Below, one piece after another: positions 5,471 to 57,790 of a DNA stretch of 64,000 nucleotides. Made by a program: the position numbers and the translations under genes. The stretch comes from an uncultured Peptococcaceae bacterium (GTDB lineage Bacteria > Bacillota > Dehalobacteriia > UBA4068 > UBA4997): positions 12,967 through 76,966 of the forward strand of contig CANSKT010000002.1 in NCBI GenBank assembly GCA_947647555.1. The letters are read 5' to 3'. Positions within the stretch are counted from its first letter, which is position 1; the number at the start of each line of letters is the position of its first letter. The notes beneath the pieces were generated by a model. The model saw nothing but the letters and a program-made list of their open reading frames with translations. It was not told the DNA's origin and did no database searches.

Positions 5471-5513
5471 CACTAGCACCCTCCTTGTTCATCTATCATA
5501 ACAGACACACGCA

Positions 5514-23264: not shown

Positions 23265-23288
23265 TTCACTATCACTCCTCAAAATAAT

Positions 23289-24533: not shown

Positions 24534-24574
24534 TTTACTATCACTCCTAAAAATAATTTATATAAACGCCATTT

Positions 24575-25771: not shown

Positions 25772-25843
25772 TTTACTATCACTCACAATCTATCACAATT
25801 TATAAATTTATTTTAGCACCATTTGGTCGGATAAGCAACATTA

Positions 25844-26332
25844 TCACAAATCAACAGTAAAAATAACCTGCAAATGCTCGTTATCGGCATTATCATAAAA
25901 CGGCGTAATGCCGGCGCAGTTTTCCAGCAGATAATCCAAATCGGTAACATAGGGCGGCAAATCCGCCGTATCCGTAATTTTGGGAAAATTCTGCCGCACC
26001 TGTTCCGCCAGACTGAAATGACGCAGCCAATAGGCAATATCCTTAACCCAGATATGGTCTTTCAGCGTAATAATTTCATTTTCCGTATCCACCAGAAACT
26101 CGCCGCCCACCAATATATTCAGCGGCGTTCGATTGGTTTCTCGCCATTTGCCGCCACCCAGACAAAGCTGAATACCATACCAGGCCTTGTCCAACGCACA
26201 ACTGCGCGGCGTGCCGAAAAGCCGCTCCTCAAACTCCTCCAGCATATAATCATAACGCTCCGCCTCCGGTCTGGCACAAAGTTCCGCCAGTTCCTTATCC
26301 GTCAGCGCATATAAAACTCCCAAACGTGACAT
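25844..26332 (-). CDS. hypothetical cytoplasmic protein (DUF1877/YfbM-like?) embedded in the secreted-protein cluster
   Basis: 162 aa with no signal peptide. The family call is tentative. Confidence 0.4.
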   Translation of the reverse strand: MSRLGVLYALTDKELAELCARPEAERYDYMLEEFEERLFGTPRSCALDKAWYGIQLCLGGGKWRETNRTPLNILVGGEFLVDTENEIITLKDHIWVKDIAYWLRHFSLAEQVRQNFPKITDTADLPPYVTDLDYLLENCAGITPFYDNADNEHLQVIFTVDL

Positions 26333-26342
26333 ATTAACCTCC

Positions 26343-27605
26343 TTAATCTGTCGCCGTTGCGTCCGGCGCCAGCTTCAATTTTACAACATAATCATCAGCC
26401 AGTATTAAAAGCTGCTGGCCGTCCGGCGATATAGCTCCCTTTTCAAAATTCCACAAACCCGGATATTGTTCCGTCAGCCCGTCCGTTTCTGTGCAGAAAA
26501 TAATCTTGCTGGCATTATCCGCATAATTACAAGCCACAATACGGCAGGGCTCGGCGTTTTCCTCGGCAAAATGCTCAGAAAAATAAATTGTATCGCCATA
26601 GGCCGCCAGCAGACCACCGCCGTTGTTATCCTGAAAGGTACACTCGCCCAACAGACCGCCGGACAGATTGACAATCTGATAATGACTGCCGTCCTCGCAG
26701 ACAGCGTGCAGTACAACATAATCACCGGTCACATTTTGCACCGGCTGCACTTCGCTATAAAAAAGCCATGGAACGCTGGTCGGCCATTCCACATATGCGC
26801 GGCGCTGCTGCACCTTAACTTCGCCACTGTTCGCCGGCAGGGTTACCTCCAACAAATCGCCAGCAGTGCCCAGCAACAGCCAGCGGTCCGGCTTTTGCAC
26901 CGTGGGCGGCATAAACAGGCACCAAGGGCAGTCCATTTTGGCCAGCCTGACCTCTTTACCGGTTTTTTCATCATATAAATTGATAAAATGCGTTATACGC
27001 TGTAACTCCTTGGGGTCCTGCTCAAAGCGAGTTAACAGATACCGGCCATCACCCAGCCAAAACGCCTGGTCATCTCTATTCAGTTCGAGGCTGTCCGGCA
27101 CGGCAAATTCCTGAGTCTGTCCGGTAACATTATCATAAACCAGAAAACTGTGCAGCCTTTGATTATAAAGCACCAACTGCTGACTGGCCGAAAGATAATA
27201 GCCGCTTAAATAATAATCATTTTCATATAAACTATCCTCCGGCCAGACACAAAGCTGCTCCGGTTCCGCTCCGTCCGCCATACGGAAAATTTTGCCCTGC
27301 CAACCGTCAGCTGTTCGGCTAACGCCATACAGCAAATAGTCCGTATCATTATAATAATAGGCCTCCTCCAAATCAAACCGCCAAACCTCATCTTCCGTCA
27401 GCGACTCGCCCTCTCGCCATTTGTCGTTGGGCAGACCGGGCACCTGCGTAACCTGCTCAATCTGCACAACTGATTCCTGCAACAACTCCGGCTCCGTTCG
27501 CGGCGGCTGCTCTGCCGGCTGTTTCTGAACCAAATCCAGCCCAAACAACGCTCCGACTGCCAGACACAGACTTAATGCAAATATAATACTTAACCTTTTT
27601 TTCAT
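26343..27605 (-). CDS. lipoprotein, paralog family B (P4), probable beta-propeller-like extracellular protein
   Basis: Start MKKRLS overlaps the P5 stop (TAATG). A signal peptide is followed by a Cys. Shares its domain order and several motifs with P5. Confidence 0.6.
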   Translation of the reverse strand: MKKRLSIIFALSLCLAVGALFGLDLVQKQPAEQPPRTEPELLQESVVQIEQVTQVPGLPNDKWREGESLTEDEVWRFDLEEAYYYNDTDYLLYGVSRTADGWQGKIFRMADGAEPEQLCVWPEDSLYENDYYLSGYYLSASQQLVLYNQRLHSFLVYDNVTGQTQEFAVPDSLELNRDDQAFWLGDGRYLLTRFEQDPKELQRITHFINLYDEKTGKEVRLAKMDCPWCLFMPPTVQKPDRWLLLGTAGDLLEVTLPANSGEVKVQQRRAYVEWPTSVPWLFYSEVQPVQNVTGDYVVLHAVCEDGSHYQIVNLSGGLLGECTFQDNNGGGLLAAYGDTIYFSEHFAEENAEPCRIVACNYADNASKIIFCTETDGLTEQYPGLWNFEKGAISPDGQQLLILADDYVVKLKLAPDATATD

Positions 27606-28822
27606 TATTTCGCCAACTCCTTTTCGCTCCCGGCCAACGGCAGACGCCAAACCTCCCGATAGCTGCAAAGCAGAAGCTGCCGGCCGTCCGGGCTGCAAAC
27701 TCCCTGATAAAACCAGTTTAAGCGCGGCTTACGCTGGCTACGGTTGTTAAAAATCTCATTTTCCTCGCCGGTCAGATAATTATAGGCCAGCAAATGCAAA
27801 TAACGCTCATCATTTTCCCAAACATAATTGGGGAAATACAGGAAATCCCCCTGCGCGCCCAATAACTCCGCATCATTAGCCAGTTCTTGCCCTGCGGCGT
27901 TTTCAATACGCTGCGGCAGACTATAACGCCCCATTTCCGCGCCGGCCGCCCAGTCAATCACCTGATAAGTCATATTCTCATCACCATAAACGGACAGCAC
28001 CGCGCGCACGCTCTCCGTGTTCGGCACCAGCCGCATACGGTTATAATATACCTCCGTATCGCCGGTTGGCCATTCCTCCGGGCAGTGGTGCAGATTTTCA
28101 ATCCGCGCGCTCTCCGCGTCCAGATGCAATTCTAAGATATCACCGGCGTTAGTCATCATCAGCCAAACGCCCGGCTCCAGCTGGCAGTAATCCTGTATCC
28201 AGCGCCCATTCATCTCGGCCAGCGGCTGCTCACTGTCCGCCGCCAAATCATACAGACTCAAAGCAACGCGCCAATCTGGCAGTCTACGACCCAGCAAAAA
28301 CAGGTTTTCCGTCAGGCAAAGCGCAGTAACCTCTCTTTCGTCCTGCATCAAATCTTGTGTCAAAGGCAGCTGTATCTGCCGGCCGGTTGCCGCCGCCAAA
28401 TCATACAAATAAAACTGCTGACGGTACGGGTTATACATCGCGCAAACGCCGGCTTCCGGCAGATAAGCGGAAGAAAAACCCCATTCGTCAAAGGTAAAAT
28501 CGCCCTCCTCCGGCCAGCGGCAAACCCATTGCAGTTCGGTACCAGTCAACCGGAACAGCTGACACTGATAGCCGTCCTCGGTAATGGTGGGCGCAAACAG
28601 CAGCCATTCCTGCGGCGCCAGATAATAAGCGTCATAAATAATCATCTGATTATTACCAACCAACGTCCCGTTGCTATTCGGTTTAACATCTTCGCCAAAC
28701 TCCTCGGCCAGCCAGTATTCGTATACGGAAACGTCCTCGCCCGGAGTGGCGTCCGGCTCGCCGCAGCCTGCTAACAGCAACATCAAAAGCAACAGCCCCA
28801 GCGCTGCCCAAAGCCTTTTCAT
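27605..28822 (-). CDS. lipoprotein, paralog family B (P5)
   Basis: Lipobox LLAGC. Start overlaps the P6 stop (ATGA). Paralogous to P4 (for example the shared SPDGRQLLL / SPDGQQLLI motif). Confidence 0.6.
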   Translation of the reverse strand: MKRLWAALGLLLLMLLLAGCGEPDATPGEDVSVYEYWLAEEFGEDVKPNSNGTLVGNNQMIIYDAYYLAPQEWLLFAPTITEDGYQCQLFRLTGTELQWVCRWPEEGDFTFDEWGFSSAYLPEAGVCAMYNPYRQQFYLYDLAAATGRQIQLPLTQDLMQDEREVTALCLTENLFLLGRRLPDWRVALSLYDLAADSEQPLAEMNGRWIQDYCQLEPGVWLMMTNAGDILELHLDAESARIENLHHCPEEWPTGDTEVYYNRMRLVPNTESVRAVLSVYGDENMTYQVIDWAAGAEMGRYSLPQRIENAAGQELANDAELLGAQGDFLYFPNYVWENDERYLHLLAYNYLTGEENEIFNNRSQRKPRLNWFYQGVCSPDGRQLLLCSYREVWRLPLAGSEKELAK

Positions 28823-30120
28823 GACATCAACTCCTCAATCTGCTCAAGACTAATGCTTAATGGTAAAACCTGCGTACTGCTGTTATGAACTACGGAGCTG
28901 TAAAATACAACCGATAAATTAAAATAAAGCACGCCCTCAGATATATAGTCGAACTCCAGCCAAGGCATACTTGTCCAAGCAGGCAACTCATTATATTTAC
29001 CCAGGTTCTGCCAAAATTCATTTATGGCCACCGTTTCTTTATAAATATCCGGCGCGGCCTTACGCATATAATTATTGGCCCATTCTATGGCATAATCTGT
29101 CAAAAGCAGCGAATTTAACGCAACACCTTTATCCAACTGCATATCATAAAGAACATAATTCACACAATCGTTCAGCATTAAATAACGCTGGCCGTCCGTC
29201 CAGCAGCAATAAGCCCTCTCTGGCCGCCAACCCAACACTTTCTCCATCATGGCCACAGTATCATAATATTGTGCCGCCGCTTCAGCCTGCTTTTTATCCT
29301 CCAGCAGCCACATACCGGCATTGCCGTTTAAGTACACCTTGCCGGCCTGCTCCAGTGGCCAAAATGCAGCGCCCGTATGTTGCGGCCGATAACTTAACGC
29401 GCGCGTCATATAGTTTTGACCGCTTGCAGCATTGACAAAATAAAAATAGAAATCTGAATAATACTTACTTTCTAAATAATAAGAATTGTTAATATAGACC
29501 AGATAATTGCCGCCGGCAGTCGGGTTTACAGATAAAATACCGTATTCATGTAAATGCTTCCGCCAGGGCAGTTGCAGAGTTGAAAGCAGCTGACCGTTTT
29601 TGCATAATTCTCCGTTGTGCAGATTTAAAGTGTATAAATCCGCATTTTCCTCGTCCTCATAAACTGTTTTCGCATATGTCAGCCGCACCTCGCTGCCGTC
29701 ATCGTCCGGCCATTCCCAGTTCAGCCACCAACACAGCGCTTCCAGCCCAACATACATAACATCATCATGCACAAACGGTTTCAACCCAGCAGAACTGCTC
29801 CAACCATAACCATTGGGAAAAGAAAAGCTAAAATCGGTCTGGTCACAATCCGAACGGTACGGATAAATGTGCAGAACACTTTCGTCCGGCATTTCCACCA
29901 GCAAACAAACTCCACCCTCGTCTTCGCTCCAGCGCGGCTCCAAATCAAACCGCGCCAGCATTTCGCGCAACGGTACATAATAACTTTCACCTTTTTGCAT
30001 CGCACTGCCAATATTCTCTCCCTCAAGATAAACCGGCACGTTAGCCGCCAGGCCAGTCTGCGGCAGTCCAAAACAAAAAACCAATAACCAACACATCATC
30101 AACAAAACATTTTTCTTCAT
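28819..30120 (-). CDS. secreted protein, paralog family A (P6)
   Basis: Signal peptide + CuAO-N-like motif (ANVPVYLEGENIG...YVPLREM) + family-A core. Start at MKKNVL preceded by the GGGTGATAGTAAAATG context. Confidence 0.65.
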   Translation of the reverse strand: MKKNVLLMMCWLLVFCFGLPQTGLAANVPVYLEGENIGSAMQKGESYYVPLREMLARFDLEPRWSEDEGGVCLLVEMPDESVLHIYPYRSDCDQTDFSFSFPNGYGWSSSAGLKPFVHDDVMYVGLEALCWWLNWEWPDDDGSEVRLTYAKTVYEDEENADLYTLNLHNGELCKNGQLLSTLQLPWRKHLHEYGILSVNPTAGGNYLVYINNSYYLESKYYSDFYFYFVNAASGQNYMTRALSYRPQHTGAAFWPLEQAGKVYLNGNAGMWLLEDKKQAEAAAQYYDTVAMMEKVLGWRPERAYCCWTDGQRYLMLNDCVNYVLYDMQLDKGVALNSLLLTDYAIEWANNYMRKAAPDIYKETVAINEFWQNLGKYNELPAWTSMPWLEFDYISEGVLYFNLSVVFYSSVVHNSSTQVLPLSISLEQIEELMS

Positions 30121-30202
30121 TTTACTATCACCCTTTCCAATATAAGCTATCACCATTATAACACGCTAAAGCTACTTTTTCACCTTTTTTCCGAAATTAA
30201 TA

Positions 30203-46352: not shown

Positions 46353-46509
46353 CAGCGCTTTTAATATGCGGCCTTTCTTTTTGAAAAGGTCGCATATTAT
46401 TTTTTAGCGAGCGTTTTATATCACTTAAAAAAATTTGCTTTTTTTGCAAAATTTATCAAAAAAACTGCTTGACTATACCAACCTTTTATGATATTATATT
46501 AAAGTACTT

Positions 46510-46597
46510 GCGGATGTGGCGGAATTGGCAGACGCGCTAGATTCAGGTTCTAGTGAGGGTTAACTTCGTGGGGGTTCAAGTCCCTTCATCCGCACCA
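46510..46597 (+). tRNA. tRNA-Leu (anticodon CAG), type II long variable arm, encoded CCA
   Basis: 7-bp acceptor stem GCGGATG/CATCCGC. Anticodon stem CTAGA/TCTAG with loop TTCAGGT. T-loop GTTCAAGT, discriminator A, then CCA. Confidence 0.85.
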
Positions 46598-46600
46598 AGA

Positions 46601-46638
46601 AAAACCGATGCTTTAATAGCATCGGTTTTATTGTTTTT
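46601..46638 (+). terminator. rho-independent terminator after the tRNA
   Basis: AAACCGATGC...GCATCGGTTT hairpin followed by TATTGTTTTT. Confidence 0.65.
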
Positions 46639-46646
46639 CTGGCAGA

Positions 46647-46886
46647 TTAAGCAATATTACTGCACTCTAAAATACTATCCAGCAGTTTATCAGTTTTTTG
46701 ACATACATAGTCCAGCTGCAACATACAAACCAGCATAGCACTGGCCGGCCCGGAAATTTCTTTATCTTCCTCACTTAAAAAATCGTACAGCAAATGCAAT
46801 ACATTATTAACTGACCAAACCTGGCTTATTAACTCATTTAATTCGTCAACTGCCAATTCCAATTTAACTCTGTTTTCTTTTTCCAT
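46647..46886 (-). CDS. hypothetical small protein (AT-rich islet)
   Basis: 79-aa ORF with GC content lower than the flanking genes. No recognisable family. Confidence 0.3.
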   Translation of the reverse strand: MEKENRVKLELAVDELNELISQVWSVNNVLHLLYDFLSEEDKEISGPASAMLVCMLQLDYVCQKTDKLLDSILECSNIA

Positions 46887-47015
46887 TATAATTATCCTCC
46901 TTACTTGCTATTGATTTCCCCTAAGAAGAATGATATAATAGATTTACCAATTCTTCTTAGGGGGTTTTGGGCTATAAGACAATCGGAAGGCTTGTGACGG
47001 CGCATACCGGTTGTC

Positions 47016-47186
47016 TTATTTTTTTTCCAAAAGCAGGTTTATACCCTGTCTAACAGCTTCAGCTCGTGTTAAACCATTTGCCTGACAATATACATCAAGT
47101 TGTTTTAATGTTTCATCATCAATTCTGACTTTTAAATCATTCCTTTTGGGATTAACCGCTTTTGGCCTGCCAGTTCGTGGCGACAT
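47016..47186 (-). CDS. ribbon-helix-helix (CopG/antitoxin-like) DNA-binding protein
   Basis: MSPRTGRPKA...LKVRIDDETLKQLDVYCQANGLTRAEAVRQGINLL is a typical RHH pattern. Confidence 0.5.
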   Translation of the reverse strand: MSPRTGRPKAVNPKRNDLKVRIDDETLKQLDVYCQANGLTRAEAVRQGINLLLEKK

Positions 47187-47329
47187 CTTCTCACCTCGCT
47201 TTTTGCGTTCCACAAAAACAATTATAGTGAAGGGAACTCAAAAAGTCAATACCTTTTTTAGATTTTATGTAAATATTGATTTTCCCCAAGAAAAAATGTG
47301 AATATGATAAAGTAAAGGGAGCTAAATTT

Positions 47330-47476
47330 ATGCCAACTGAAAAAGAGCCCTTGGATATCAAAAAAGCAATGGCTTATGATTTGCTGAAAATTTTCAAAAA
47401 AGGGGAAGATAAAAAATATTCCAGAGATGAATTGGAAAACTTAATTGACGCCTATATTACCGGTCTGGAACAGTAA
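47330..47476 (+). CDS. hypothetical small protein
   Basis: 48-aa ORF in an AT-rich region. A hairpin terminator lies at about 47507-47541. Confidence 0.25.
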   Translation: MPTEKEPLDIKKAMAYDLLKIFKKGEDKKYSRDELENLIDAYITGLEQ

Positions 47477-47767
47477 TCAAAATGAACCATAACCAAATGT
47501 TCATACAAAAATACCCTCGCTGTTTTTCTGCGAGGGTATTTTGTATGAACACTTAGCGATTGGCAAGGCCACTTTAGTGGACGCAGACAGAGCTTAGTGT
47601 GAACCATTTCGACCAGCCGCGCCCTTTAGGGTAGCGGCCGGTCGATTTTGCTTATCTTATTAGTTAAGCAAATTTTTCTTAAATTTTTCATAATATAGTA
47701 TATATTTTTTCGCTTTTATAGTGTATAATTAAACTATCCCGACTTGCATAGACCAAAGGAGAAAACC

Positions 47768-49390
47768 ATGGATAAACAAAAACTGCAAGCCCTGCTTCAG
47801 GAACTGGAAACCTGGCATGAAAACAATGAATTTTCCAAAATAATCATGGCTATAAACGCAGTGCCAGAGGCAGAACGGCCTTATGAATTAACCTGTCTGC
47901 TGGCCAGAGCCTATAACAATCTGGCGGTTATGGGTGATAATATGTCTTTAACCTCCAGCGAGGAACGTCGGCCCAAGCTTTTGGAGAAAGCCTTAAATCT
48001 GCTGCAATCAGTGGAAGATGAGGGGCAGAACGACAAAAACTGGCATTTTCGCAAGGGCTATGCGCTTTATTTTCTGGATAAGGAAGCGGAAGCGCTGGCC
48101 TGCTTTGAACGCTCGGCCGAGTTAAATCCTGACGACCCGGACACAGAATATTTTATTCAGGAATGTAAAAAAATTCTGGAACAACAAAATTTTGCTCCCA
48201 TCGTTTATGCCCAAGAGGATTGGAATGCGGTTGAGGAACATATCAATTATTATTTTGGCGAGTATCACAATGTTTTTCATGAGTTGGTTTCGCCGGATAT
48301 TCACGTTGATATTTGCATTATCCCACCCGACGACGAGCGCAATTATTTTACGCTGGTAACAATGGGTATGGGCGCGCATTTAATGAATGTGCCGCAGGAG
48401 TTGGCGGAAAACAAACTGGAACGCGCCGAATTAATGCTGGCGCTGCCGCCCACCTGGCAGTTGGATAAGGACTCACTGCAAGACGAACGCTGGTATTGGC
48501 CTATTCGGCTGCTGAAAAGTTCCGCCCGGCTCCCAATCACCAATAATACCTGGCTGGGCTGGGGGCATACTATCGGCCTGAATGAGGACGATTTTTATGC
48601 GGATAACACTCGCTTTTGCGGTGTAATTTTAACCTGTCCCCTGGGCTGCCCGGAGGGTTCGGAGTACTGTACCCTGCCTGGCGGCGAGGACGTTAATTTT
48701 TATCAGTTGACCCCACTTTTTGCCGAAGAAATTGAATATAAATGCGCCAAGGGCGCCGAAGCGCTGCTTGATTTAATGGCGGCGGCGGAAATGGACTTTG
48801 TGGTGAATATCAACCGCCCCAACGTGCTGACCGACCAGGTTTGGCCGGAGCCGGATTATAACAAAATCATCGGTTATGGCGATTTGCTGATGGACAGCGC
48901 TATCAGTCATTTGCAGTCTATCCACCAGAAAGAACTGCCCGTGCGGCCGTTAGCGGCTTATAATCATTTGGCAATTTATCTGCGCTGGTGCATCGAGCAT
49001 GACCTTTTAAGCGACCTATTTAAACGTAAATATCACCGCACCGTTAAAGCGGTTTGGCAAAACATTGAGCGGCCACAATATATTCCTGATTTGCGCCTGT
49101 TGCTGCGCGGCGACCGCGATTTAAACGGCAGTCTGCTGTTAACCTATTTTAACGGTACCGGCGCGGCTTTTGGCCGTTGGTATTACGGTGATGGACTGGA
49201 TAAAAGTCATTATTATCCCTGTGATGTAGACGACCATGCCCGGGATTATTTTGGCGAGGAGCGCTACAACAGCGCCGAATTTCAAGATGAAGCCTATCTT
49301 TTCGTTCCCTGGTCAGAGGAGTATTATCAGGCCATGGCCAAACGAATTGACGCGCAGTTTGCGCATTGGCAGACCCTGGAAGATGAGTGA
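47768..49390 (+). CDS. TPR-like N-terminus + SUFU-like domain protein (immunity-protein-type architecture)
   Basis: AAGGAGAAAACC RBS. The central region aligns by eye to the Suppressor-of-fused N-domain (GMGAHLM..., ELMLALPPTW, WLGWGHT, FCGVILTCPLG...EE). Confidence 0.5.
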   Translation: MDKQKLQALLQELETWHENNEFSKIIMAINAVPEAERPYELTCLLARAYNNLAVMGDNMSLTSSEERRPKLLEKALNLLQSVEDEGQNDKNWHFRKGYALYFLDKEAEALACFERSAELNPDDPDTEYFIQECKKILEQQNFAPIVYAQEDWNAVEEHINYYFGEYHNVFHELVSPDIHVDICIIPPDDERNYFTLVTMGMGAHLMNVPQELAENKLERAELMLALPPTWQLDKDSLQDERWYWPIRLLKSSARLPITNNTWLGWGHTIGLNEDDFYADNTRFCGVILTCPLGCPEGSEYCTLPGGEDVNFYQLTPLFAEEIEYKCAKGAEALLDLMAAAEMDFVVNINRPNVLTDQVWPEPDYNKIIGYGDLLMDSAISHLQSIHQKELPVRPLAAYNHLAIYLRWCIEHDLLSDLFKRKYHRTVKAVWQNIERPQYIPDLRLLLRGDRDLNGSLLLTYFNGTGAAFGRWYYGDGLDKSHYYPCDVDDHARDYFGEERYNSAEFQDEAYLFVPWSEEYYQAMAKRIDAQFAHWQTLEDE

Positions 49391-49417
49391 TTTTACATTG
49401 CAAAAGGAGGTTTAACC

Positions 49418-50260
49418 ATGGTACCGGAAAAAGCACAGAAAAAATTTGCCGCCAAATATGCGGATCAGGTGCAGGAACTGCTGGTTTTAACCGCTGAGGG
49501 TGTGCGCGGCGCCGCCAAATGGGGCGACGGCCTTTGGCAGCCAAGCTGTCGGCTGCTGGCTTATATAGATTTGGCTGATAACAGTCTGCACGGCGGCTTA
49601 AACCAACCGGAAAGCGTATTGCAATGGCTGGTGGGTGATGATGAACACAGCGGCTGGCGTTTTGGTCTGCAAGCGCAGACTATTTACCGGGTTAAAGTTA
49701 AAGCCCTGCAAGGCAAATTGGCTGACCGCTATTTTATGCTGCTGGAGGTTTTGGAGCGTTTGCCGGAACATCAGCTGTTGAGCCCTATCCGGCAAGCCTA
49801 TTTGCAGCCGGTAACGCTGACCGACCCCGACCTGCCCGGCGTCTGCTTTGAACTGGAAAGAGAGTTTGACTGGTTCATTACCCAACTGGACTGGTTGGGT
49901 GATGATTGTTCCGTTTCACTGGAAACAGCCGAGGATAAAGAGGACGCAACCGCCGCTTTGGCAGTTTTCAAGCAGTTTTATGCGGAATTGCCGGCCTGGG
50001 ACGCTAAAATGCGCGCTTTTGCCGCCGCCGAACTGACCAGTAATGCCAATGACTGGCAGGAGGATTGCGGCGATGACGACGAGGTTTCGCTAATAACGGA
50101 AGATGATTTTGCCCGGCGCATTTCAGTTTGTGAATTCAGCATGGACGCAGATGGTGATTTTACCGCTTATTTTGCTGACGACGACATGTTCTTTGGTCAT
50201 TCCATTTTGGTGGAGGGCAATATTAACGGCGAATTAAGCGACGCTTATCTGGCCGGTTAA
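49418..50260 (+). CDS. hypothetical two-domain cytoplasmic protein, acidic C-terminal domain (immunity-protein-like?)
   Basis: AAAGGAGG RBS. No catalytic motifs recognised. Confidence 0.45.
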   Translation: MVPEKAQKKFAAKYADQVQELLVLTAEGVRGAAKWGDGLWQPSCRLLAYIDLADNSLHGGLNQPESVLQWLVGDDEHSGWRFGLQAQTIYRVKVKALQGKLADRYFMLLEVLERLPEHQLLSPIRQAYLQPVTLTDPDLPGVCFELEREFDWFITQLDWLGDDCSVSLETAEDKEDATAALAVFKQFYAELPAWDAKMRAFAAAELTSNANDWQEDCGDDDEVSLITEDDFARRISVCEFSMDADGDFTAYFADDDMFFGHSILVEGNINGELSDAYLAG

Positions 50261-50508
50261 CCCAATATCCATGCAGACTTGAATTGCACATATTCCGTAT
50301 TTATTTACGTTTTTTAAGTTTTTATCTAAACATAACTATTGATTTTTGACCTATTCTGTAATAAAATAGATGTATAGTTTTTTATGAACATAATTAAGTG
50401 AATTTTGTCAGGTAAAATAAATGCCAATAGGCTTATATTTTCGCTTAAGTTCGGTTCCTGACACCATGGGTGTGCTGTTTTAAACCAGGCAAAGGGAGAG
50501 TTGTTGCC

Positions 50509-52599
50509 ATGAGCAATAAACAGAAGGTTCTGATTGTGGACGATTCAGAAATGAACCGCTCCATTTTGGCGGATATTCTGGGCGATAAATACGAAATAAT
50601 TGAAGCCGAAAACGGCGTGCAGGCCGTGGCCACTATCCAGAAGTATGGCACAGAGCTTTCTGTGGTGCTTCTGGATATGGTTATGCCCAAAATGGACGGC
50701 TTTGGTGTGTTGGATATGATGAACCAACACCATTGGATTGATGAAGTTCCGGTGATTATGATTTCCGCTGAAAGCTCCTCCTCTTATGTGGAGCGAGCTT
50801 ATGATATGGGCGTTACCGATTTTATCAGCCGCCCCTTTGACGCGCTGATTGTCCGCCGGCGCGTTATCAACACCATTTTGCTTTATGCCAAGCAGAAAAA
50901 GCTTACCAGCCTTTTGGCTGACCAGCTGCTGCAAAAGGAAGAACGCAGCAATTTGATGGTGGACATTTTAAGCCACATTGTAGAATTTCGTAACGGTGAG
51001 AGCGGCATGCATGTTATTCACGTCCGCCTGATTACCGAACTTTTGCTGAACCATTTAATGCATAAGGTTGAGCGCTACAATGATTTGACCCATGAAGATT
51101 TGGATATGATCAGCATGGCCTCCGCCCTGCATGATATTGGCAAAATATCCATTGATGAGGCCATTCTGAACAAACCCGGCCGGCTGACCGATGAAGAATT
51201 TACGATTATGAAGACCCATGCTCTGATTGGCGCGCAGATGCTTTCAGAGATGCCTTATAAAGATGATAAGCTTATCCGAACGGCTTATGAAATTTGCCGC
51301 TGGCACCATGAGCGTTATGACGGTAGCGGTTATCCCGATGGTCTGAAAGGCGATGACATTCCGATTTCCGCCCAGATTGTGGCAATGGCCGATGTTTATG
51401 ACGCCCTGACCAGTGAGCGCGTTTATAAAAAAGCCCTGCCGCATGAAACTGCCGTGCAGATGATTATAGACGACAAATGCGGCGCTTTTAACCCGGAATT
51501 AAAAGAGTGTTTGCTTGACGTGGCCGAAACAATCCGCAGCACGCTGGCTTCTGACGTGGTGGCCTTAAACCAGAAGCGCGCTTCTCAGAACGCAGTGGCG
51601 GAGATGTTGCGCAACAATGAAACCAGCGCTTCAGAGCGCACATTGCGGCTGCTGGAAAAAGAAAGAGAAAAATATAAATTCTTTGCGGCGCTGACTAAGG
51701 AAATTCAGGTTGAATATAATCCCGACCCACCCACGCTGACACTCTCCCCCTGGGGCGCGCAAAAGCTGGGGCTGGACGAAATTATCATGGACCCACAGAA
51801 TAATGAGCAGGTTCTGACCGTAACCGGCGCGGAAAACTGGCAGAAGATAACAGAACTGCTGCTGAACTCCACACCGGAGCAGCCGATGATTAAATATGAC
51901 TGCAAGATGTTTTATAATGGAGAGTTGCGTTGGCATCAGGTTATTGCTCGCGCCATGTGGCAGCAGGAGGACGAACCAATCTTCCAGGGCGCTATTGGCA
52001 AGGTTATTGATATTCATGATTCCAAACAGCGACTGGCAGAGCTGGAGCGCAAGGCCAATCATGACTCCTTAACCGGCCTGCTGAACCATGCCAGCGCCAA
52101 AAAACATATCATTGAAAGTCTGGAAGGACACCCACACGACAAATATGCACTGATTATTTTTGACTTGGACCATTTCAAAAATGCCAACGATACCTATGGC
52201 CATATTTTTGGCGACGAGGTTTTGAAGCTGGAAGCGCAAAAGCTAAAAGGCAGCTTGCGCGCCGGCGATATTGCCGCCCGTATCGGTGGTGATGAATTTT
52301 TAATCTTCCTGCGTTATACAGATGAGGTTGAGCCAATTATTGAGCGTATTTTTAAAACGCTGATTGGCCGACATGAAGATTTTGAATTTACGGTAAGCAT
52401 GGGCGTGGTGCAAACTGAGTTTGCGGATAATGATTATGAAACCCTTTTCCATTGCGCCGACCAGGCGCTTTATGCGGCCAAACGCGGCGGCCGCGGACGC
52501 TATTGCTTTTATAGAGATGATTTGCCGGATACTATTCATAATAAAGCGAAATCATCTCTTTCCAAGATTGAAAGCAACGACCCAAACCGTGAATGTTAA
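50509..52599 (+). CDS. response regulator with REC + HD-GYP + GGDEF domains (c-di-GMP phosphodiesterase/cyclase)
   Basis: REC domain (VLIVDDSE...VVLLDMVMPKMDG). HD-GYP domain (HVIHV...HDIGK...HHERYDGSGYP). GGDEF domain (RIGGDEFLIFL). Confidence 0.85.
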   Translation: MSNKQKVLIVDDSEMNRSILADILGDKYEIIEAENGVQAVATIQKYGTELSVVLLDMVMPKMDGFGVLDMMNQHHWIDEVPVIMISAESSSSYVERAYDMGVTDFISRPFDALIVRRRVINTILLYAKQKKLTSLLADQLLQKEERSNLMVDILSHIVEFRNGESGMHVIHVRLITELLLNHLMHKVERYNDLTHEDLDMISMASALHDIGKISIDEAILNKPGRLTDEEFTIMKTHALIGAQMLSEMPYKDDKLIRTAYEICRWHHERYDGSGYPDGLKGDDIPISAQIVAMADVYDALTSERVYKKALPHETAVQMIIDDKCGAFNPELKECLLDVAETIRSTLASDVVALNQKRASQNAVAEMLRNNETSASERTLRLLEKEREKYKFFAALTKEIQVEYNPDPPTLTLSPWGAQKLGLDEIIMDPQNNEQVLTVTGAENWQKITELLLNSTPEQPMIKYDCKMFYNGELRWHQVIARAMWQQEDEPIFQGAIGKVIDIHDSKQRLAELERKANHDSLTGLLNHASAKKHIIESLEGHPHDKYALIIFDLDHFKNANDTYGHIFGDEVLKLEAQKLKGSLRAGDIAARIGGDEFLIFLRYTDEVEPIIERIFKTLIGRHEDFEFTVSMGVVQTEFADNDYETLFHCADQALYAAKRGGRGRYCFYRDDLPDTIHNKAKSSLSKIESNDPNREC

Positions 52600-56311: not shown

Positions 56312-56427
56312 TTTATCATTCCTCCATTCCCTGCACAAAATATCTTCTATTAATAACACCCCACAACAAAGCAAAATGCCACATTTTACAAAAAACCGCC
56401 CTGCATAATTAAAGGGCGGTTTTTTTA

Positions 56428-56763
56428 TCATTTTTCCAGAATTTTATTAATTTCAGTATAAAACACCGGAAATTCCTTTTTCACAGTTTCATAAACGTCA
56501 GCCATACGCAAGGTCTGATATTTATGAGCCGCAATATCCCGAAAGCCGGCAATCGCTCTCCAGGGCAAAGTGGTATAAGCTGCCCGGAAATCACTGGTTA
56601 AATTTTTCACAAGTTCACCAACATTGATAACCGTCATGCAAATAGCTCTTTTTAGCTGCTCATTTGCCTCAAAATCAGCTAATTCTGCCTCGCCAAGCAT
56701 ACTTTCAGCAATATTTATCTCCGAAAGAATTTTGTTCAGTAAAACTACATCTCTATGCTCCAT
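56428..56763 (-). CDS. hepT: HepT-like (DUF86) toxin of a HepT/MntA toxin-antitoxin pair
   Basis: RX4HXY motif (RDIAAHKY). Overlaps the upstream MntA gene. Confidence 0.8.
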   Translation of the reverse strand: MEHRDVVLLNKILSEINIAESMLGEAELADFEANEQLKRAICMTVINVGELVKNLTSDFRAAYTTLPWRAIAGFRDIAAHKYQTLRMADVYETVKKEFPVFYTEINKILEK

Positions 56764-57049
56764 AAAGCGGAATTCTCCTGTTTATTTCTAAAATCGTATC
56801 CTCCGGCAATGGCCCATGCACAACATCAACCTTGGTTTGCAGCAGTTCCTCCAAACGCAGCTTTACACTGCTCAAGGTCAACAAAGAAACCTGCGGCGTG
56901 TTAAACTCCATGATAATATCCACATCACTTTCCGGCGTACTGCAACCGTCAGCATATGAGCCAAACAATTCTGCCTTGGTAATTGGATATTCGTCAGCAA
57001 CAATATAAATATTGTCAATAATTTTCTGTAAGCTTAACAACAAAACCAC
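56753..57049 (-). CDS. mntA: MntA-like nucleotidyltransferase antitoxin
   Basis: GSxxxGxxxxxSDxD motif (GSYADGCSTPESDVDI). The start-codon coordinate may be off by 1. Confidence 0.8.
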   Translation of the reverse strand: MVLLLSLQKIIDNIYIVADEYPITKAELFGSYADGCSTPESDVDIIMEFNTPQVSLLTLSSVKLRLEELLQTKVDVVHGPLPEDTILEINRRIPLYGA

Positions 57050-57061
57050 CTCTGCTTTTAG

Positions 57062-57790
57062 CTATACCTGCGCAAAAACCTCCGCAATCGGCTCATGAAT
57101 AACCAGATTGGCATGCTTATCTGCTGGCGTGGGCGTTTTATTAATCAAAACCAGCCGGTTGCCGCGATAATAATTGATAAGACCGGCCGCCGGATACACC
57201 ACCAGAGAAGTACCGCCAATAATCAGCATATCAGCCTGGCTGATATCATTAACAGCGCCAGTTATAACGTCAGTATCCAGCCCTTCCTCATAAAGCACCA
57301 CATCAGGCTTGAGCATGCCGCCGCAAACCTGACAACGCGGCACGCCGGCGGCTTCTTTCATATAAAATACATCATGCGATTTACCACATTTTTGGCAATA
57401 GTTACGCAAAACCGAACCATGTAGTTCCCAAACGCGTCTGGAGCCTGCCGCCTGATGTAAACCGTCAATATTCTGGGTCACCACTGAGCGCAAATGCCCC
57501 TCCTGCTCCAACTCCGCCAGACGAAGATGGCAGGTGTTTGGCTGCGCCTCCAGACACAGCATTTTATCCTGATAAAATCTATAAAACTCCTCTGGCTTTT
57601 CTTCAAAAAAAGTATGGCTCAGAATTGTTTCCGGCGGCCAGGCATATTGTTGATTATACAAACCATCTGTGGAACGAAAATCAGGAATACCGCTGGCTGT
57701 GGAAACGCCGGCGCCGCCGAAAAAAACAGCTTTCTTACTCTCCTGCAACCAGGCCGCCAGCGTTTTAATAGCCTCGTCCATAAAAATCAC
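57062..57790 (-). CDS. cobB: NAD-dependent protein deacylase (Sir2/CobB family)
   Basis: GAGVSTASGIPDFRS motif, a CxxC...CxxC zinc ribbon (CQKCG...CQVCGG) and an HG motif. Confidence 0.85.
   Translation of the reverse strand: MIFMDEAIKTLAAWLQESKKAVFFGGAGVSTASGIPDFRSTDGLYNQQYAWPPETILSHTFFEEKPEEFYRFYQDKMLCLEAQPNTCHLRLAELEQEGHLRSVVTQNIDGLHQAAGSRRVWELHGSVLRNYCQKCGKSHDVFYMKEAAGVPRCQVCGGMLKPDVVLYEEGLDTDVITGAVNDISQADMLIIGGTSLVVYPAAGLINYYRGNRLVLINKTPTPADKHANLVIHEPIAEVFAQV

What the first reader, a model, noticed from the sequence alone, without database searches (positions are those of the whole stretch)
46510..50260. tRNA-Leu-adjacent AT-rich islet with an RHH gene and SUFU-like and other immunity-type genes but no toxin or integrase
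Downstream of tRNA-Leu(CAG) the composition turns AT-rich. The islet encodes a small RHH protein, two tiny ORFs, a TPR + SUFU-like protein and an acidic two-domain protein. SUFU-like domains are known as immunity proteins of polymorphic toxin systems. No integrase, toxin or secretion gene is present. Inference: this is a decayed integrative element, or a set of orphan immunity genes retained for protection against neighbours' toxins.
Basis: partly seen in the sequence, partly recalled or inferred. Interest (0 to 1): 0.55.

Follow-up and report, generated by a model that had tools for sequence, protein, structure and literature searches.

The report
Orphan immunity genes beside RHH/antisense-RNA cassette
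The "islet" after tRNA-Leu is two separate things: a resident pair of toxin-less immunity-type genes of a kind predicted in 2012, and a small, strain-variable, phage-related cassette whose payload gene seems to be controlled by a repressor plus a previously uncatalogued antisense-RNA switch.

Summary
The sequence facts hold. tRNA-Leu(CAG) lies at 46510-46597, followed by an RHH gene, two small conserved ORFs, a TPR-like + SUFU (Pfam E=8e-47) + DUF7832 protein and an acidic DUF7021+DUF2262 protein. No integrase, toxin, secretion gene or att repeat is present.

It is not one AT-rich islet. Only 46.6-47.7 kb is AT-rich (37% GC). The two large genes have host-typical GC (48-52%). They sit at the same locus in relatives down to about 64% protein identity, diverging like their neighbours, so they are resident genes. 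Their domains fuse and cluster elsewhere with Imm33, Imm68, Imm51, SUKH, Barstar and DUF1963 in toxin-less arrays. This matches the "small polyimmunity locus" of Zhang et al. 2012. Immunity is inferred, not shown.

The AT-rich part (46684-47645) is a separate accessory cassette:
- It holds the RHH gene, a ~115-nt structured spacer, a 79-aa helical payload and a divergent 48-aa gene.
- The spacer has strong covariation and is not in Rfam.
- Every copy has an antisense promoter and terminator, predicting an ~80-nt countertranscript and an anti-Shine-Dalgarno switch. This resembles CopG/RNAII control in plasmid pMV158.
- Two 95%-identical relatives have deleted the cassette, another carries it elsewhere, and gut phages carry related copies.

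The decayed-integrative-element reading is not supported.

The parts
46510..46597 (+). tRNA-Leu(CAG), the left landmark of the variable locus
   Evidence: ARAGORN and Rfam RF00005 at 52.7 bits. It is conserved in relatives L001, L002 and L008 directly after the sigma/anti-sigma pair.
46601..46629 (.). Hairpin terminator shared by the tRNA (+) and the convergent 79-aa gene (-)
   Evidence: Perfect 12-bp inverted repeat I14. The terminator scan finds it.
46647..46886 (-). 79-aa acidic (pI 4.25) helical-hairpin protein, the payload of the cassette; no known family
   Evidence: No hit in Pfam, NCBIfam, PHROGs or PADLOC. It has 8 relatives in 1.84 billion representatives. In the four contexts examined plus L004 it follows a small regulator gene and the structured spacer. 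AF2 gives a helix-turn-helix hairpin at pLDDT 87, with only generic fold hits. It has a strong SD (AAGGAGG).
46907..47024 (-). Conserved structured spacer of about 115 nt. H1 is 46974-47019 and overlaps the RHH stop codon. H2 is 46918-46963 with a conserved apical sequence TGGTAAATCTATTATAYCA.
   Evidence: CM R1 scores it at 115 bits, E=2e-21. Across 13 copies 90.7% of cells are paired, 22 of 25 pairs show compensatory changes, 0 of 500 shuffles reach this, and slid controls give 36-47%. Folding z-score is -4.4. No Rfam family matches.
46911..47027 (+). Predicted countertranscript gene: -35 TTGATT 46911-46916, extended -10 TGATATAAT ending at 46939, start near 46946, terminator hairpin 46974-47019 and T-run 47020-47027, giving an RNA of about 80 nt
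   Evidence: The promoter scan scores it 10/12 with TG. TTGNNN-17-TGnTATAAT plus hairpin plus T-run is present in all 13 copies, although their stems differ. H1 has A.C but no G.U mismatches on the sense strand, which read as G.U on this strand. Transcription itself is inferred.
47016..47186 (-). 56-aa ribbon-helix-helix repressor gene (MSPRTGRP... family)
   Evidence: PF01402 E=3.7e-6. PHROG 876 'transcriptional repressor' E=1.3e-15. Weak RepB-RCR_reg and RepA-regulator hits. It has an SD (GAGGTGAG). The gene is called as 56 aa in L010.
47221..47249 (-). Promoter of the RHH gene (TTGACT-17-TATAAT), back to back with the promoter region of the 48-aa gene
   Evidence: Best promoter match in the region, 11/12.
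47274..47295 (+). Partial repeat of the spacer's 3' part (TATTGATTTTCCCCAAGAAAAA against 46909-46930), upstream of the 48-aa gene
   Evidence: Direct repeat D3, 86% identity over 22 nt. Its role as a promoter or operator is inferred.
47330..47476 (+). 48-aa protein gene of unknown function, divergent from the RHH gene
   Evidence: It has an SD (AAGGGAG) and ATG. It is called in L010. L004 has two tandem copies at 71% identity, and L015 has the start (MPTE...). No family hit.
47508..47542 (+). Intrinsic terminator of the 48-aa gene; a diverged copy survives in the relatives that lost the cassette
   Evidence: Perfect 13-bp inverted repeat I9 followed by T's. The 51 bp that replace the cassette in L001 and L003 form a similar hairpin.
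46684..47645 (.). Extent of the strain-variable AT-rich cassette (962 bp, 37.4% GC)
   Evidence: It is replaced by 51 bp in L001 and L003 (about 95% DNA identity), which keep the last ~12 codons of the 79-aa ORF. It is present in L010.
47768..49390 (+). 540-aa TPR-like + SUFU + DUF7832 protein, a predicted multi-domain (poly)immunity protein
   Evidence: PF05076 E=8.4e-47 and PF25191 E=1.2e-19. There are 938 homologues, many fused to Imm33, DUF4253, DUF4261 or TPR. NCBI names it 'suppressor of fused domain protein'. It is syntenic in L001, L003, L004 and L007-L009.
49418..50260 (+). 280-aa acidic DUF7021 + DUF2262 protein, 27 nt downstream of the SUFU gene; predicted second immunity-type gene
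   Evidence: PF22886 E=2e-25 and PF10020 E=2e-40. It is paired with SUFU in L003 and L007-L010. DUF2262 stands alone inside the L043 polyimmunity array. The AF2 model has pLDDT 88.9 with weak OB-fold-like matches. L001 has an in-frame 567-bp deletion in this gene.

Best explanation
The interval holds two independent units, side by side at a variable locus between tRNA-Leu(CAG) and a conserved c-di-GMP/phosphorelay gene cluster.

Unit B (47768-50260) is a two-gene, same-strand operon. It encodes cytoplasmic, acidic, multi-domain proteins: TPR-like-SUFU-DUF7832 and DUF7021-DUF2262. They belong to the 'polyimmunity protein / small polyimmunity locus' class. The proteins most likely act as standing immunity: they bind and neutralise the C-terminal toxin domains of polymorphic toxins delivered by neighbouring bacteria, with no cognate toxin of their own nearby. 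The unit is a long-term resident of this Bacillota lineage, not a recent import.

Unit A (46684-47645) is a small AT-rich accessory cassette.
- An RHH repressor is probably co-transcribed with a 79-aa helical payload gene.
- The ~115-nt spacer between them encodes, on the opposite strand, an ~80-nt countertranscript.
- In the sense mRNA the spacer forms hairpin H2, whose 3' arm is an anti-Shine-Dalgarno sequence held by an SD-like 5' arm.
- Pairing of the countertranscript with the 5' arm would free the anti-SD to close the payload's ribosome-binding site.
- Expression is therefore doubly limited, by repressor and by antisense RNA, as for repB of plasmid pMV158.
- The cassette is gained, lost and moved between sites, and it is related to cassettes carried in the morphogenesis modules of gut phages.

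Shown: the gene content, domain families, composition, synteny and indels, covariation of the spacer, and conservation of the antisense promoter and terminator.
Inferred: the immunity function, transcription of the antisense RNA, the switch, RHH autoregulation and the payload's role.
For: Unit B:
- Domain calls are robust.
- GC and GC3 match the neighbours.
- The locus order is kept in relatives. L001 and L003 are 98% identical in SUFU, L004 76%, and L007-L009 64%. SUFU identity of 98.7/75.8/63.5% tracks the hybrid kinase at 95.3/76.6/72.2% and the anti-sigma protein at 94.9/-/58.9%.
- Content varies in the way described for polyimmunity loci. DUF4253 and MNT/HepT are added in L008 and L009. 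DUF2262 is absent in L004 and deleted in frame in L001.
- Homologues are fused to Imm33, DUF4253, DUF4261 and TPR.
- L043 is a toxin-less array of at least 12 genes: Imm51, Imm68+Imm33, DUF4261-SUFU-DUF7832-DUF4253, SUKH, DUF2262 and Barstar. L044, L046 and L047 are small toxin-less loci.
- This matches Zhang et al. 2012, sections 38-39.

Unit A:
- The indel and its remnants are seen in L001 and L003.
- The same cassette lies after the hybrid kinase gene in L004.
- The order small regulator, spacer, payload is kept in unrelated contexts L015-L022.
- The CM finds 13 distinct copies plus 19 in phage-like or viral contigs. Ten IMG/VR contigs carry the core, and a phage minor capsid gene lies upstream in L023.
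- Covariation is strong.
- The antisense promoter and terminator are present in every copy.
- When the antisense target is masked, the SD is sequestered in 9 of 9 variants.
- The pMV158 precedent is CopG plus antisense RNAII (PMC4485353).
Against: Unit B:
- No toxin is linked to this SUFU-DUF7832 subfamily in any of the seven contexts examined, so immunity rests on guilt by association and a 2012 computational classification.
- DUF7832, DUF7021 and DUF2262 have no literature and no solved relative.
- The stable position beside c-di-GMP genes could mean another role.

Unit A:
- No expression data exist.
- The covariation alignment was fitted by the CM.
- Inverted repeats flanking a -10 box could be a protein operator instead.
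- In 5 of 9 variants the unconstrained minimum-energy fold already hides the SD, so the switch direction is uncertain.
- The payload's function is unknown.
Confidence: 0.6

Rival explanations
1. The whole interval is the decayed remnant of a tRNA-targeting integrative element (island or prophage) that has lost its integrase and att sites. The immunity-type genes and the RHH gene would be its surviving cargo.
For: The interval lies next to a tRNA gene. Content between the tRNA and the RR-HD-GGDEF gene differs among relatives and includes HigBA, Uma2 and MNT/HepT modules. In L007 a large serine recombinase with phage-like genes sits immediately upstream of the same array. The RHH cassette has phage relatives.
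Against: There is no copy of the tRNA 3' end and no other flanking direct repeat, and no integrase in the window. The SUFU and DUF2262 genes have host GC and GC3. They are kept at the locus with divergence matching the neighbours down to about 64% identity. The AT-rich part alone is variable, and it also occurs at a site with no adjacent tRNA in L004.
Confidence: 0.12
2. The SUFU-DUF7832 and DUF7021-DUF2262 proteins are not toxin immunity proteins. They are resident regulatory or adaptor proteins tied to the adjacent signalling genes (RR-HD-GYP-GGDEF, Hpt, hybrid kinase) or to another cellular process.
For: The SUFU gene lies directly upstream of the RR-HD-GGDEF/Hpt/kinase cluster in every relative, even when the other genes differ. 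One distant homologue lies beside an EAL protein and an ECF sigma/anti-sigma pair. No toxin partner was seen. Inheritance is vertical and composition is typical.
Against: Most homologues sit in unrelated contexts without c-di-GMP genes. Domain fusions and neighbours are overwhelmingly immunity-type families, including Barstar and SUKH. The second gene is dispensable: it is absent in L004 and internally deleted in L001. Variable cargo sits between SUFU and the signalling genes in L008.
Confidence: 0.13
3. The RHH gene and the 79-aa gene form a type II toxin-antitoxin pair, with RHH as antitoxin and the 79-aa protein as toxin. The hairpins would be only terminators or operators, with no antisense RNA.
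For: It is a small two-gene module that is strain-variable and found at different sites and in phages, as TA modules are. RHH antitoxin families give weak hits (BrnA, RelB-like, VapB). A genuine MNT/HepT module is also strain-variable in the same window.
Against: The 129-nt conserved structured gap is atypical for type II operons. The RHH is minimal at 56 aa, with no C-terminal toxin-binding extension. The 79-aa protein is acidic (pI 4.25), a plain helical hairpin, with no toxin family or PADLOC hit. The upstream regulator can be a different, non-RHH small protein while the spacer stays the same (L015, L020). The payload is replaced by unrelated proteins in phage copies. The -35/-10 and T-run are conserved across copies whose stems differ.
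Confidence: 0.12

Closest known systems
Polyimmunity proteins and small heterogeneous polyimmunity loci of polymorphic toxin systems (Imm-SUFU and associated Imm domains; Zhang, de Souza, Anantharaman, Iyer, Aravind 2012, PMC3482391)
   Same: It has a SUFU domain joined to other domains and TPR in one protein. Two tandem same-strand genes lie 27 nt apart. No toxin gene or cassette lies in or beside the locus. Content differs between close strains. Homologues are embedded in larger arrays with Imm33, Imm51, Imm68, SUKH and Barstar.
   Different: DUF7832, DUF7021 and DUF2262 are not named as Imm families in the text that could be read. No recombinase is adjacent in this genome. The pair looks vertically stable in its clade and keeps a fixed position next to signalling genes. 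No member of this subfamily has a demonstrated toxin partner.
CopG (RHH repressor) plus countertranscribed RNAII control of repB in rolling-circle plasmid pMV158 (PMC4485353, PMC5717011)
   Same: A small RHH repressor gene lies upstream of and in line with the controlled gene. An antisense promoter lies in the intergenic region, and a short terminated countertranscript is complementary to the intercistronic mRNA. The predicted effect is on translation initiation. The RHH gives weak RepB-RCR_reg and RepA-regulator hits.
   Different: The controlled gene is a 79-aa helical protein, or other small proteins in phages, and not a Rep initiator. There is no origin and no plasmid. The site is chromosomal or phage-borne. 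The RNA element shares no sequence with a known family. The antisense RNA does not overlap the SD; instead it would act through an anti-SD hairpin (inferred).
tRNA-associated genomic islets and defence/TA hot spots
   Same: The variable gene content lies directly 3' of a tRNA gene, with TA modules (HigBA, MNT/HepT) and a prophage at the same spot in relatives.
   Different: This genome has no integrase and no att duplication. Most of the interval has native composition and is conserved.
Phage morons and free-standing homing-endonuclease cassettes
   Same: Related RHH-spacer-payload units sit between a minor capsid gene and the scaffold/capsid genes of gut phages. They are followed by a gene similar to annotated phage HNH endonucleases.
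   Different: The copy in this window has no endonuclease gene and no phage genes around it.

Membership tests
Imm-SUFU / Pfam SUFU (PF05076) | Significant match to the SUFU domain profile above the curated threshold | tested here: met
   159.7 bits against a cut-off of 25, E=8.4e-47, covering profile positions 2-172 of 172. NCBI names cluster members 'suppressor of fused domain protein'.
Imm-SUFU / Pfam SUFU (PF05076) | Genomic linkage to a polymorphic toxin gene or toxin cassette (the basis of the immunity assignment) | tested here: not met
   No toxin or secretion gene is in the window. None appears in seven homologue contexts. This is expected for the polyimmunity subclass but leaves function unproven.
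Imm-SUFU / Pfam SUFU (PF05076) | Neutralisation of a toxin domain by direct binding | not testable with these tools
   This needs co-expression rescue or binding assays.
Polyimmunity locus / polyimmunity protein (Zhang et al. 2012) | Tandem immunity-type genes on the same strand with short intergenic distance and no intervening toxin genes | tested here: met
   The two genes lie on the + strand with a 27-nt gap. Relatives extend the row with DUF4253.
Polyimmunity locus / polyimmunity protein (Zhang et al. 2012) | Several structurally unrelated immunity domains combined in one polypeptide, or fusions of the same domains with recognised Imm families | tested here: met
   The protein is TPR-like+SUFU+DUF7832. 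Homologues add Imm33 (PF09951), DUF4253 and DUF4261. L043 has an Imm68+Imm33 protein adjacent. Whether DUF7832, DUF7021 and DUF2262 are themselves immunity domains is inferred from association.
Polyimmunity locus / polyimmunity protein (Zhang et al. 2012) | Gene content differs between closely related strains | tested here: met
   L001 has an in-frame deletion. L004 lacks the DUF2262 gene. L008 and L009 add DUF4253.
Polyimmunity locus / polyimmunity protein (Zhang et al. 2012) | Adjacent recombinase (frequent, not obligatory) | tested here: not met
   None is in the window. A large serine recombinase lies next to the array only in L007.
tRNA-integrated genomic island / integrative element | Integrase gene and direct repeat of the tRNA 3' end marking attL/attR | tested here: not met
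   The tRNA 3' 25-mer has no second copy at up to 3 mismatches. No flanking repeat was found. No integrase domain was found.
tRNA-integrated genomic island / integrative element | Atypical composition and absence from close relatives | tested here: inconclusive
   This holds only for 46684-47645 (37% GC; absent in L001 and L003). It is false for the SUFU and DUF2262 genes.
Type II toxin-antitoxin module with RHH antitoxin | Adjacent or overlapping antitoxin-toxin genes, an antitoxin with a toxin-binding extension, and a recognisable toxin | tested here: not met
   The gap is 129 nt and structured. The RHH is a minimal 56 aa. The 79-aa protein is acidic and has no toxin, PADLOC or Pfam hit.
CopG/ctRNA (pMV158-type) expression control | RHH repressor gene upstream of the controlled gene, plus an antisense promoter and intrinsic terminator in the intercistronic region | tested here: met
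   Sequence signals are present and conserved in 13 of 13 copies. Transcription was not measured.
CopG/ctRNA (pMV158-type) expression control | The controlled gene is a plasmid replication initiator with an associated origin | tested here: not met
   The downstream gene is a 79-aa helical protein of no known family. It works like this system but is not a member.
Any Rfam 15 RNA family | Covariance-model match to the spacer | tested here: not met
   No match at E<=1 in the window copy, or at E<=0.1 in five other copies.

The most novel reading that the evidence does not exclude
The RHH-spacer-payload unit represents an undescribed family of mobile regulatory cassettes in Bacillota chromosomes and gut phages. 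It would be defined by a conserved RNA element, a countertranscript plus anti-SD hairpin switch, that gates a swappable small payload gene. Such payloads might be toxic, exclusion or anti-repressor factors. Tandem arrays of such units (L004, L015) may be built by recombination at the conserved spacer.
Probability: 0.35. Interest if true: 0.6.

Novelty: new variant of a known kind. Interest (0 to 1): 0.42.

Why it matters
The immunity-type pair adds a clean example of a toxin-less polyimmunity operon kept at one chromosomal position through speciation. It has a natural in-frame deletion and gene-loss variants. Such material is useful for testing, at last experimentally, whether SUFU/DUF2262-class proteins protect against neighbours' toxins.

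The adjacent cassette matters more for discovery. It gives a compact, conserved and covarying RNA element that is absent from Rfam and shared by uncultured Bacillota and gut phages. It comes with a concrete, testable regulatory model and an unknown payload. The case also shows that 'tRNA-adjacent AT-rich islet' calls can hide composite loci whose parts have different histories.

Tried and rejected
- att sites: a search for the tRNA 3' end and for direct or inverted repeats across 46400-51000 found nothing that bounds the interval.
- Known RNA families: Rfam at permissive thresholds gave only the tRNA and chance-level hits.
- Defence systems: PADLOC gave no hit for any of the five proteins. PHROGs hit only the RHH protein.
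- Solved structures: none exist for the 280-aa protein, and only TPR hits for the SUFU protein.
- Fold search of the 280-aa model gave only weak OB-fold (SSB/PriB) similarity, with whole-chain TM about 0.23. I treat this as a hint and not a classification.
- Fold search of the 79-aa model gave only generic helical hairpins.
- The word-indexed protein search found no relative of the 79-aa protein. The exhaustive HMMER search was needed.
- A first viral-contig scan with a 23-nt pattern found nothing because the pattern excluded the phage-type stem. The 21-nt core found 10 contigs.
- BLASTN of the cassette against GenBank phages found no match.
- L002, the 59% relative, was uninformative because its contig ends 190 bp after the tRNA.
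- ssoA-like single-strand origin or integron attC-like site for the hairpins: considered and rejected. The conserved -35/-10 spacing, the T-run and the position inside an operon fit a countertranscript better, and the ssoA CS-6 motif is not conserved.
- MAFFT alignments of the spacer were not structurally consistent. The CM-guided alignment was used instead, with its bias noted.

Full report
**1. What is in the sequence**

ARAGORN finds one tRNA in the window, tRNA-Leu(CAG) at 46510-46597 (+). A perfect hairpin terminator follows it at 46601-46629. Five genes with good ribosome-binding sites lie downstream:
- A 79-aa ORF at 46647-46886 (-).
- A 56-aa RHH gene at 47016-47186 (-).
- A 48-aa ORF at 47330-47476 (+).
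- A 540-aa gene at 47768-49390 (+).
- A 280-aa gene at 49418-50260 (+).

Pfam gives these calls:
- The 56-aa protein matches RHH_1 (E=3.7e-6).
- The 540-aa protein matches SUFU (E=8.4e-47, full-length) and DUF7832 (E=1.2e-19). One sub-threshold TPR repeat is backed by PDB hits to the PP5 TPR domain.
- The 280-aa protein matches DUF7021 (E=2e-25) and DUF2262 (E=2e-40).

The 280-aa protein is acidic (pI 4.2), as are the SUFU protein (4.6) and the 79-aa protein (4.25).

The description 'AT-rich islet' is only partly right. The window averages 49.6% GC. The stretch 46598-47767 is 35.8%. The SUFU gene is 48.4% and the 280-aa gene 52.0%, with GC3 of 0.54 and 0.56, identical to the neighbouring signalling genes.

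**2. No signs of an integrative element**

- The 25-nt 3' end of the tRNA has no second copy in the 64 kb, even at 3 mismatches.
- No direct repeat brackets the interval.
- The surroundings are housekeeping or signalling genes. Upstream lie gyrB, gyrA, MatE, NAD synthase, Lgt, malic enzyme, fumarase and an ECF sigma factor with a putative anti-sigma protein. Downstream lie an RR-HD-GYP-GGDEF protein, Hpt, a hybrid kinase, SIR2, a nitroreductase and YitT.
- No integrase, toxin or secretion gene appeared among about 35 ORFs scanned.

**3. Comparison with relatives splits the interval in two**

A scan of species-representative genomes with the anti-sigma-like protein gave L001, a MAG labelled Bacillota bacterium with about 95% DNA identity. 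Exact-protein look-ups gave L003, L010 and more distant relatives.

*The 962-bp cassette.*
- L010 is 99.97% identical to the window and has all five genes.
- L001 and L003 are collinear with the window except that 46684-47645 (962 bp) is replaced by 51 bp.
- Both keep the last ~12 codons of the 79-aa ORF and a diverged copy of the terminator that follows the 48-aa gene. They have therefore lost the cassette by deletion; the window did not gain it recently.

*The second gene.* L001 also carries a clean in-frame 567-bp deletion inside the 280-aa gene.

*L008 and L009 (SUFU 64% identical).* The order is sigma, anti-sigma, tRNA-Leu(CAG), HigB-like (Gp49), HTH antitoxin, Uma2, SUFU-DUF7832, DUF7021-DUF2262, DUF4253, MNT(/HepT), RR-HD-GGDEF, Hpt.

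*L007.* The same array is preceded by a large serine recombinase and phage-like genes.

*L004 (SUFU 76%).* The SUFU gene directly precedes RR-HD-GGDEF, with no DUF2262 gene.

*Divergence.* SUFU identity to the window is 98.7% in L001, 75.8% in L004 and 63.5% in L008. The hybrid kinase gives 95.3/76.6/72.2% and the anti-sigma-like protein 94.9/-/58.9%.

The two large genes are thus old residents of a locus whose edges collect TA modules and, in one strain, a prophage. Only the AT-rich kilobase is strain-specific. A second strain-specific insert in the window, 56410-57065, is an MNT/HepT pair.

**4. The two large genes: a small toxin-less polyimmunity operon**

- The SUFU-DUF7832 core has 938 detectable homologues, mainly from gut Bacillota and some Bacteroides. 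They are variously fused to Imm33 (PF09951), DUF4253, DUF4261 and TPR repeats.
- L043 places such a protein in a row of at least 12 tightly packed same-strand genes. The row includes Imm51, an Imm68+Imm33 protein, SMI1_KNR4 (SUKH), a stand-alone DUF2262 protein and Barstar, with no toxin.
- L044, L046 (with DUF1963) and L047 (five genes, two with SUFU) are small toxin-less loci in housekeeping surroundings.

Zhang et al. 2012 described exactly this:
- SUFU is the second most versatile immunity superfamily.
- 'Polyimmunity proteins' combine SUFU, Imm33, Imm66-69 and TPR.
- They are encoded in small loci of two or three tandem genes that usually lack toxin genes.
- Their content varies between strains.

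The most likely function is therefore standing protection against incoming polymorphic toxins, by direct binding of their toxin domains.

This remains an inference:
- I found no paper on DUF2262, DUF7021 or DUF7832.
- The 280-aa protein has no solved relative.
- No toxin lies near any member examined.

The AF2 model of the 280-aa protein is confident (pLDDT 88.9). It gives only weak matches to OB-fold proteins (two-OB SSBs, PriB; whole-chain TM about 0.23, single-domain TM about 0.55). An acidic OB-like protein would suit a nuclease-toxin inhibitor, but this is a hint only.

A rival reading is a role tied to the invariably adjacent c-di-GMP genes; one distant homologue sits beside an EAL protein. 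I rate this low because most homologues have unrelated neighbours and the second gene is dispensable.

**5. The AT-rich kilobase: an RHH/antisense-RNA cassette**

*The payload family.* The 79-aa protein has no relative in the word-indexed search but 8 in the exhaustive search. In the contexts that could be fetched, it sits in three kinds of place:
- On a short contig (L015).
- Beside rpsT-spoIIP-lepA (L016-L019).
- Beside a Na/Pi cotransporter (L020-L022).

In every case it follows a 56-59-aa regulator and a spacer that is better conserved than the proteins. The regulator is either the same RHH family or a different 'ARESRAEYFRERRK' protein.

*Spread.* A 21-nt core of the spacer occurs in 20 metagenome contigs and 10 IMG/VR viral contigs. 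In these it lies after a phage minor capsid gene (PF06152). It sits between an RHH gene of the same MSPRTGRP family and other small genes, followed by a gene resembling annotated phage HNH endonucleases.

*Movement.* L004 carries the cassette, with two copies of the 48-aa gene and two regulator-spacer units. It lies after the hybrid kinase gene, at the position that is an empty 70-bp terminator in the window. The cassette therefore moves.

*Structure.*
- The spacer (window 46907-47024, - strand) folds into hairpin H1, which encloses the RHH stop codon, and hairpin H2 (z = -4.4).
- A covariance model built from seven copies recovers 13 distinct copies and 19 further phage-borne ones.
- On the 13-copy alignment 90.7% of cells pair and 22 of 25 pairs show double changes. 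No shuffle of 500 reaches the observed values, and slid controls give 36-47%.
- The alignment was fitted by the model, so this overstates somewhat. Even so, the stems of the four sequence classes are visibly different while remaining complementary.

*The antisense gene.* On the opposite strand every copy has TTGNNN, a 17-nt spacer (19 in one copy) and TGnTATAAT, with the -10 box lying in the apical part of H2. H1 followed by a T-run then forms an intrinsic terminator. On the sense strand neither hairpin is followed by a U-run.
- H1 mismatches are A.C, never G.U, on the sense strand. They would be G.U on the antisense strand.
- H2 has 11 G.U against 5 A.C.

The counts are small, but they fit H1 working in the antisense RNA and H2 in the sense mRNA. 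I infer an ~80-nt countertranscript running from about 46946 to 47027 (+).

*A plausible switch.* The 3' arm of H2 (UUCUUCUU, CCUCUU or UUCCUCC, depending on the class) is complementary to the payload's Shine-Dalgarno sequence. The 5' arm is SD-like. I forced unpaired the part of the mRNA that the countertranscript would cover. The 3' arm, with part of the loop, then pairs with the SD and start region in all nine variants tested. Unconstrained, H2 forms and the SD is open in some variants and closed in others, so the two states are close in energy.

*Closest precedent.* The closest precedent is the pMV158 control, where the RHH repressor CopG and antisense RNAII jointly limit repB, with RNAII inhibiting its translation (PMC4485353). 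Here there is no Rep gene and no origin. It works like that system but is not a member. The spacer matches no Rfam family.

*The payload.* It is a plain helical hairpin of unknown function. Tight double control, mobility and phage relatives suggest a dosage-sensitive factor (toxic, exclusion or anti-repressor), but that is speculation. A classical type II TA reading is unlikely, for four reasons:
- The gap is 129 nt and structured.
- The RHH is minimal.
- The 'toxin' would be acidic.
- Both the regulator and the payload are swappable around the same spacer.

**6. Verdict**

The orphan-immunity reading fits the two large genes, which are a new member of a kind predicted in 2012 and already annotated as a SUFU-domain protein in NCBI. 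The decayed-integrative-element reading is not supported for them.

The RHH gene and the tiny ORFs belong to a different, mobile cassette. Its conserved RNA element and predicted countertranscript switch are the only potentially new item: a variant of CopG/ctRNA control outside plasmids. Overall interest is moderate.

Noticed in passing
window 56410-57065: A 656-bp strain-specific insert encodes an MNT (95 aa, Polbeta/NTP_transf_2) and HepT-like (111 aa, 56428-56763, -) toxin-antitoxin pair. It lies between the 206/246-aa gene and the SIR2 gene. It is present in L010 and L011 and replaced by 54 bp in L001 and L003.
   Followed up: partly
L004 14900-16830 (GCA_949935695.1, CATLGB010000004.1): An array of small cassettes lies after the hybrid kinase gene. 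It holds a 31-aa hydrophobic ORF (MALVLAIATGIAVNV..., like a type I toxin), two tandem 48-aa genes, and two RHH-spacer units. The first spacer is a divergent variant (loop ATGCTATAATATTTATAC) with no payload. The second precedes an 85-aa homologue of the 79-aa protein. Weak CM hits also fall among three small genes at L004 3690-4730, near tRNA-Cys/tRNA-Leu(TAA) and a PDDEXK_2 protein.
   Followed up: partly
L015 374-486 and 741-854: Two tandem copies of the spacer lie in one operon, in the order RHH, spacer, 59-aa 'ARESRAEYFRERRK' protein, spacer, 90-aa payload. This suggests that units are stacked by recombination at the conserved spacer.
   Followed up: partly
L007 1-6614: In one relative a prophage-like block lies immediately upstream of the HigBA-Uma2-SUFU array. 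It includes a CI-like repressor, DUF3846 and a large serine recombinase of 525 aa. In L008 the same array follows tRNA-Leu(CAG) directly, so the tRNA-proximal spot appears to be an integration hot spot.
   Followed up: partly
window 47546-47645: A 100-bp GC-rich non-coding stretch lies at the right end of the cassette. It shares CACTTAGCGATTG with the region next to the 48-aa genes of L004, in the opposite orientation relative to the gene. Its role is unknown and only chance-level Rfam hits fall there.
   Followed up: no
L046 2647-7667: A distant SUFU-DUF7832 homologue sits after an ECF sigma/anti-sigma pair and an EAL protein, and before a DUF1963 protein. This echoes the window's sigma/anti-sigma ... 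SUFU ... HD-GYP-GGDEF neighbourhood. It may be coincidence or a loose link with c-di-GMP signalling.
   Followed up: no
window 4169-5479 (-): A full-length bacterial serpin (PF00079, E=2e-81).
   Followed up: no
window 22041-30156 (-): A run of same-strand ORFs of about 400-450 aa. Two of the five scanned carry the Cu_amine_oxidN1 domain (22041-23282 and 23289-24533). The other three scanned have no Pfam hit.
   Followed up: no
L023 3036-3109: A tRNA gene lies just after the HNH-endonuclease-like gene, inside the phage morphogenesis region that carries the RHH-spacer cassette.
   Followed up: no
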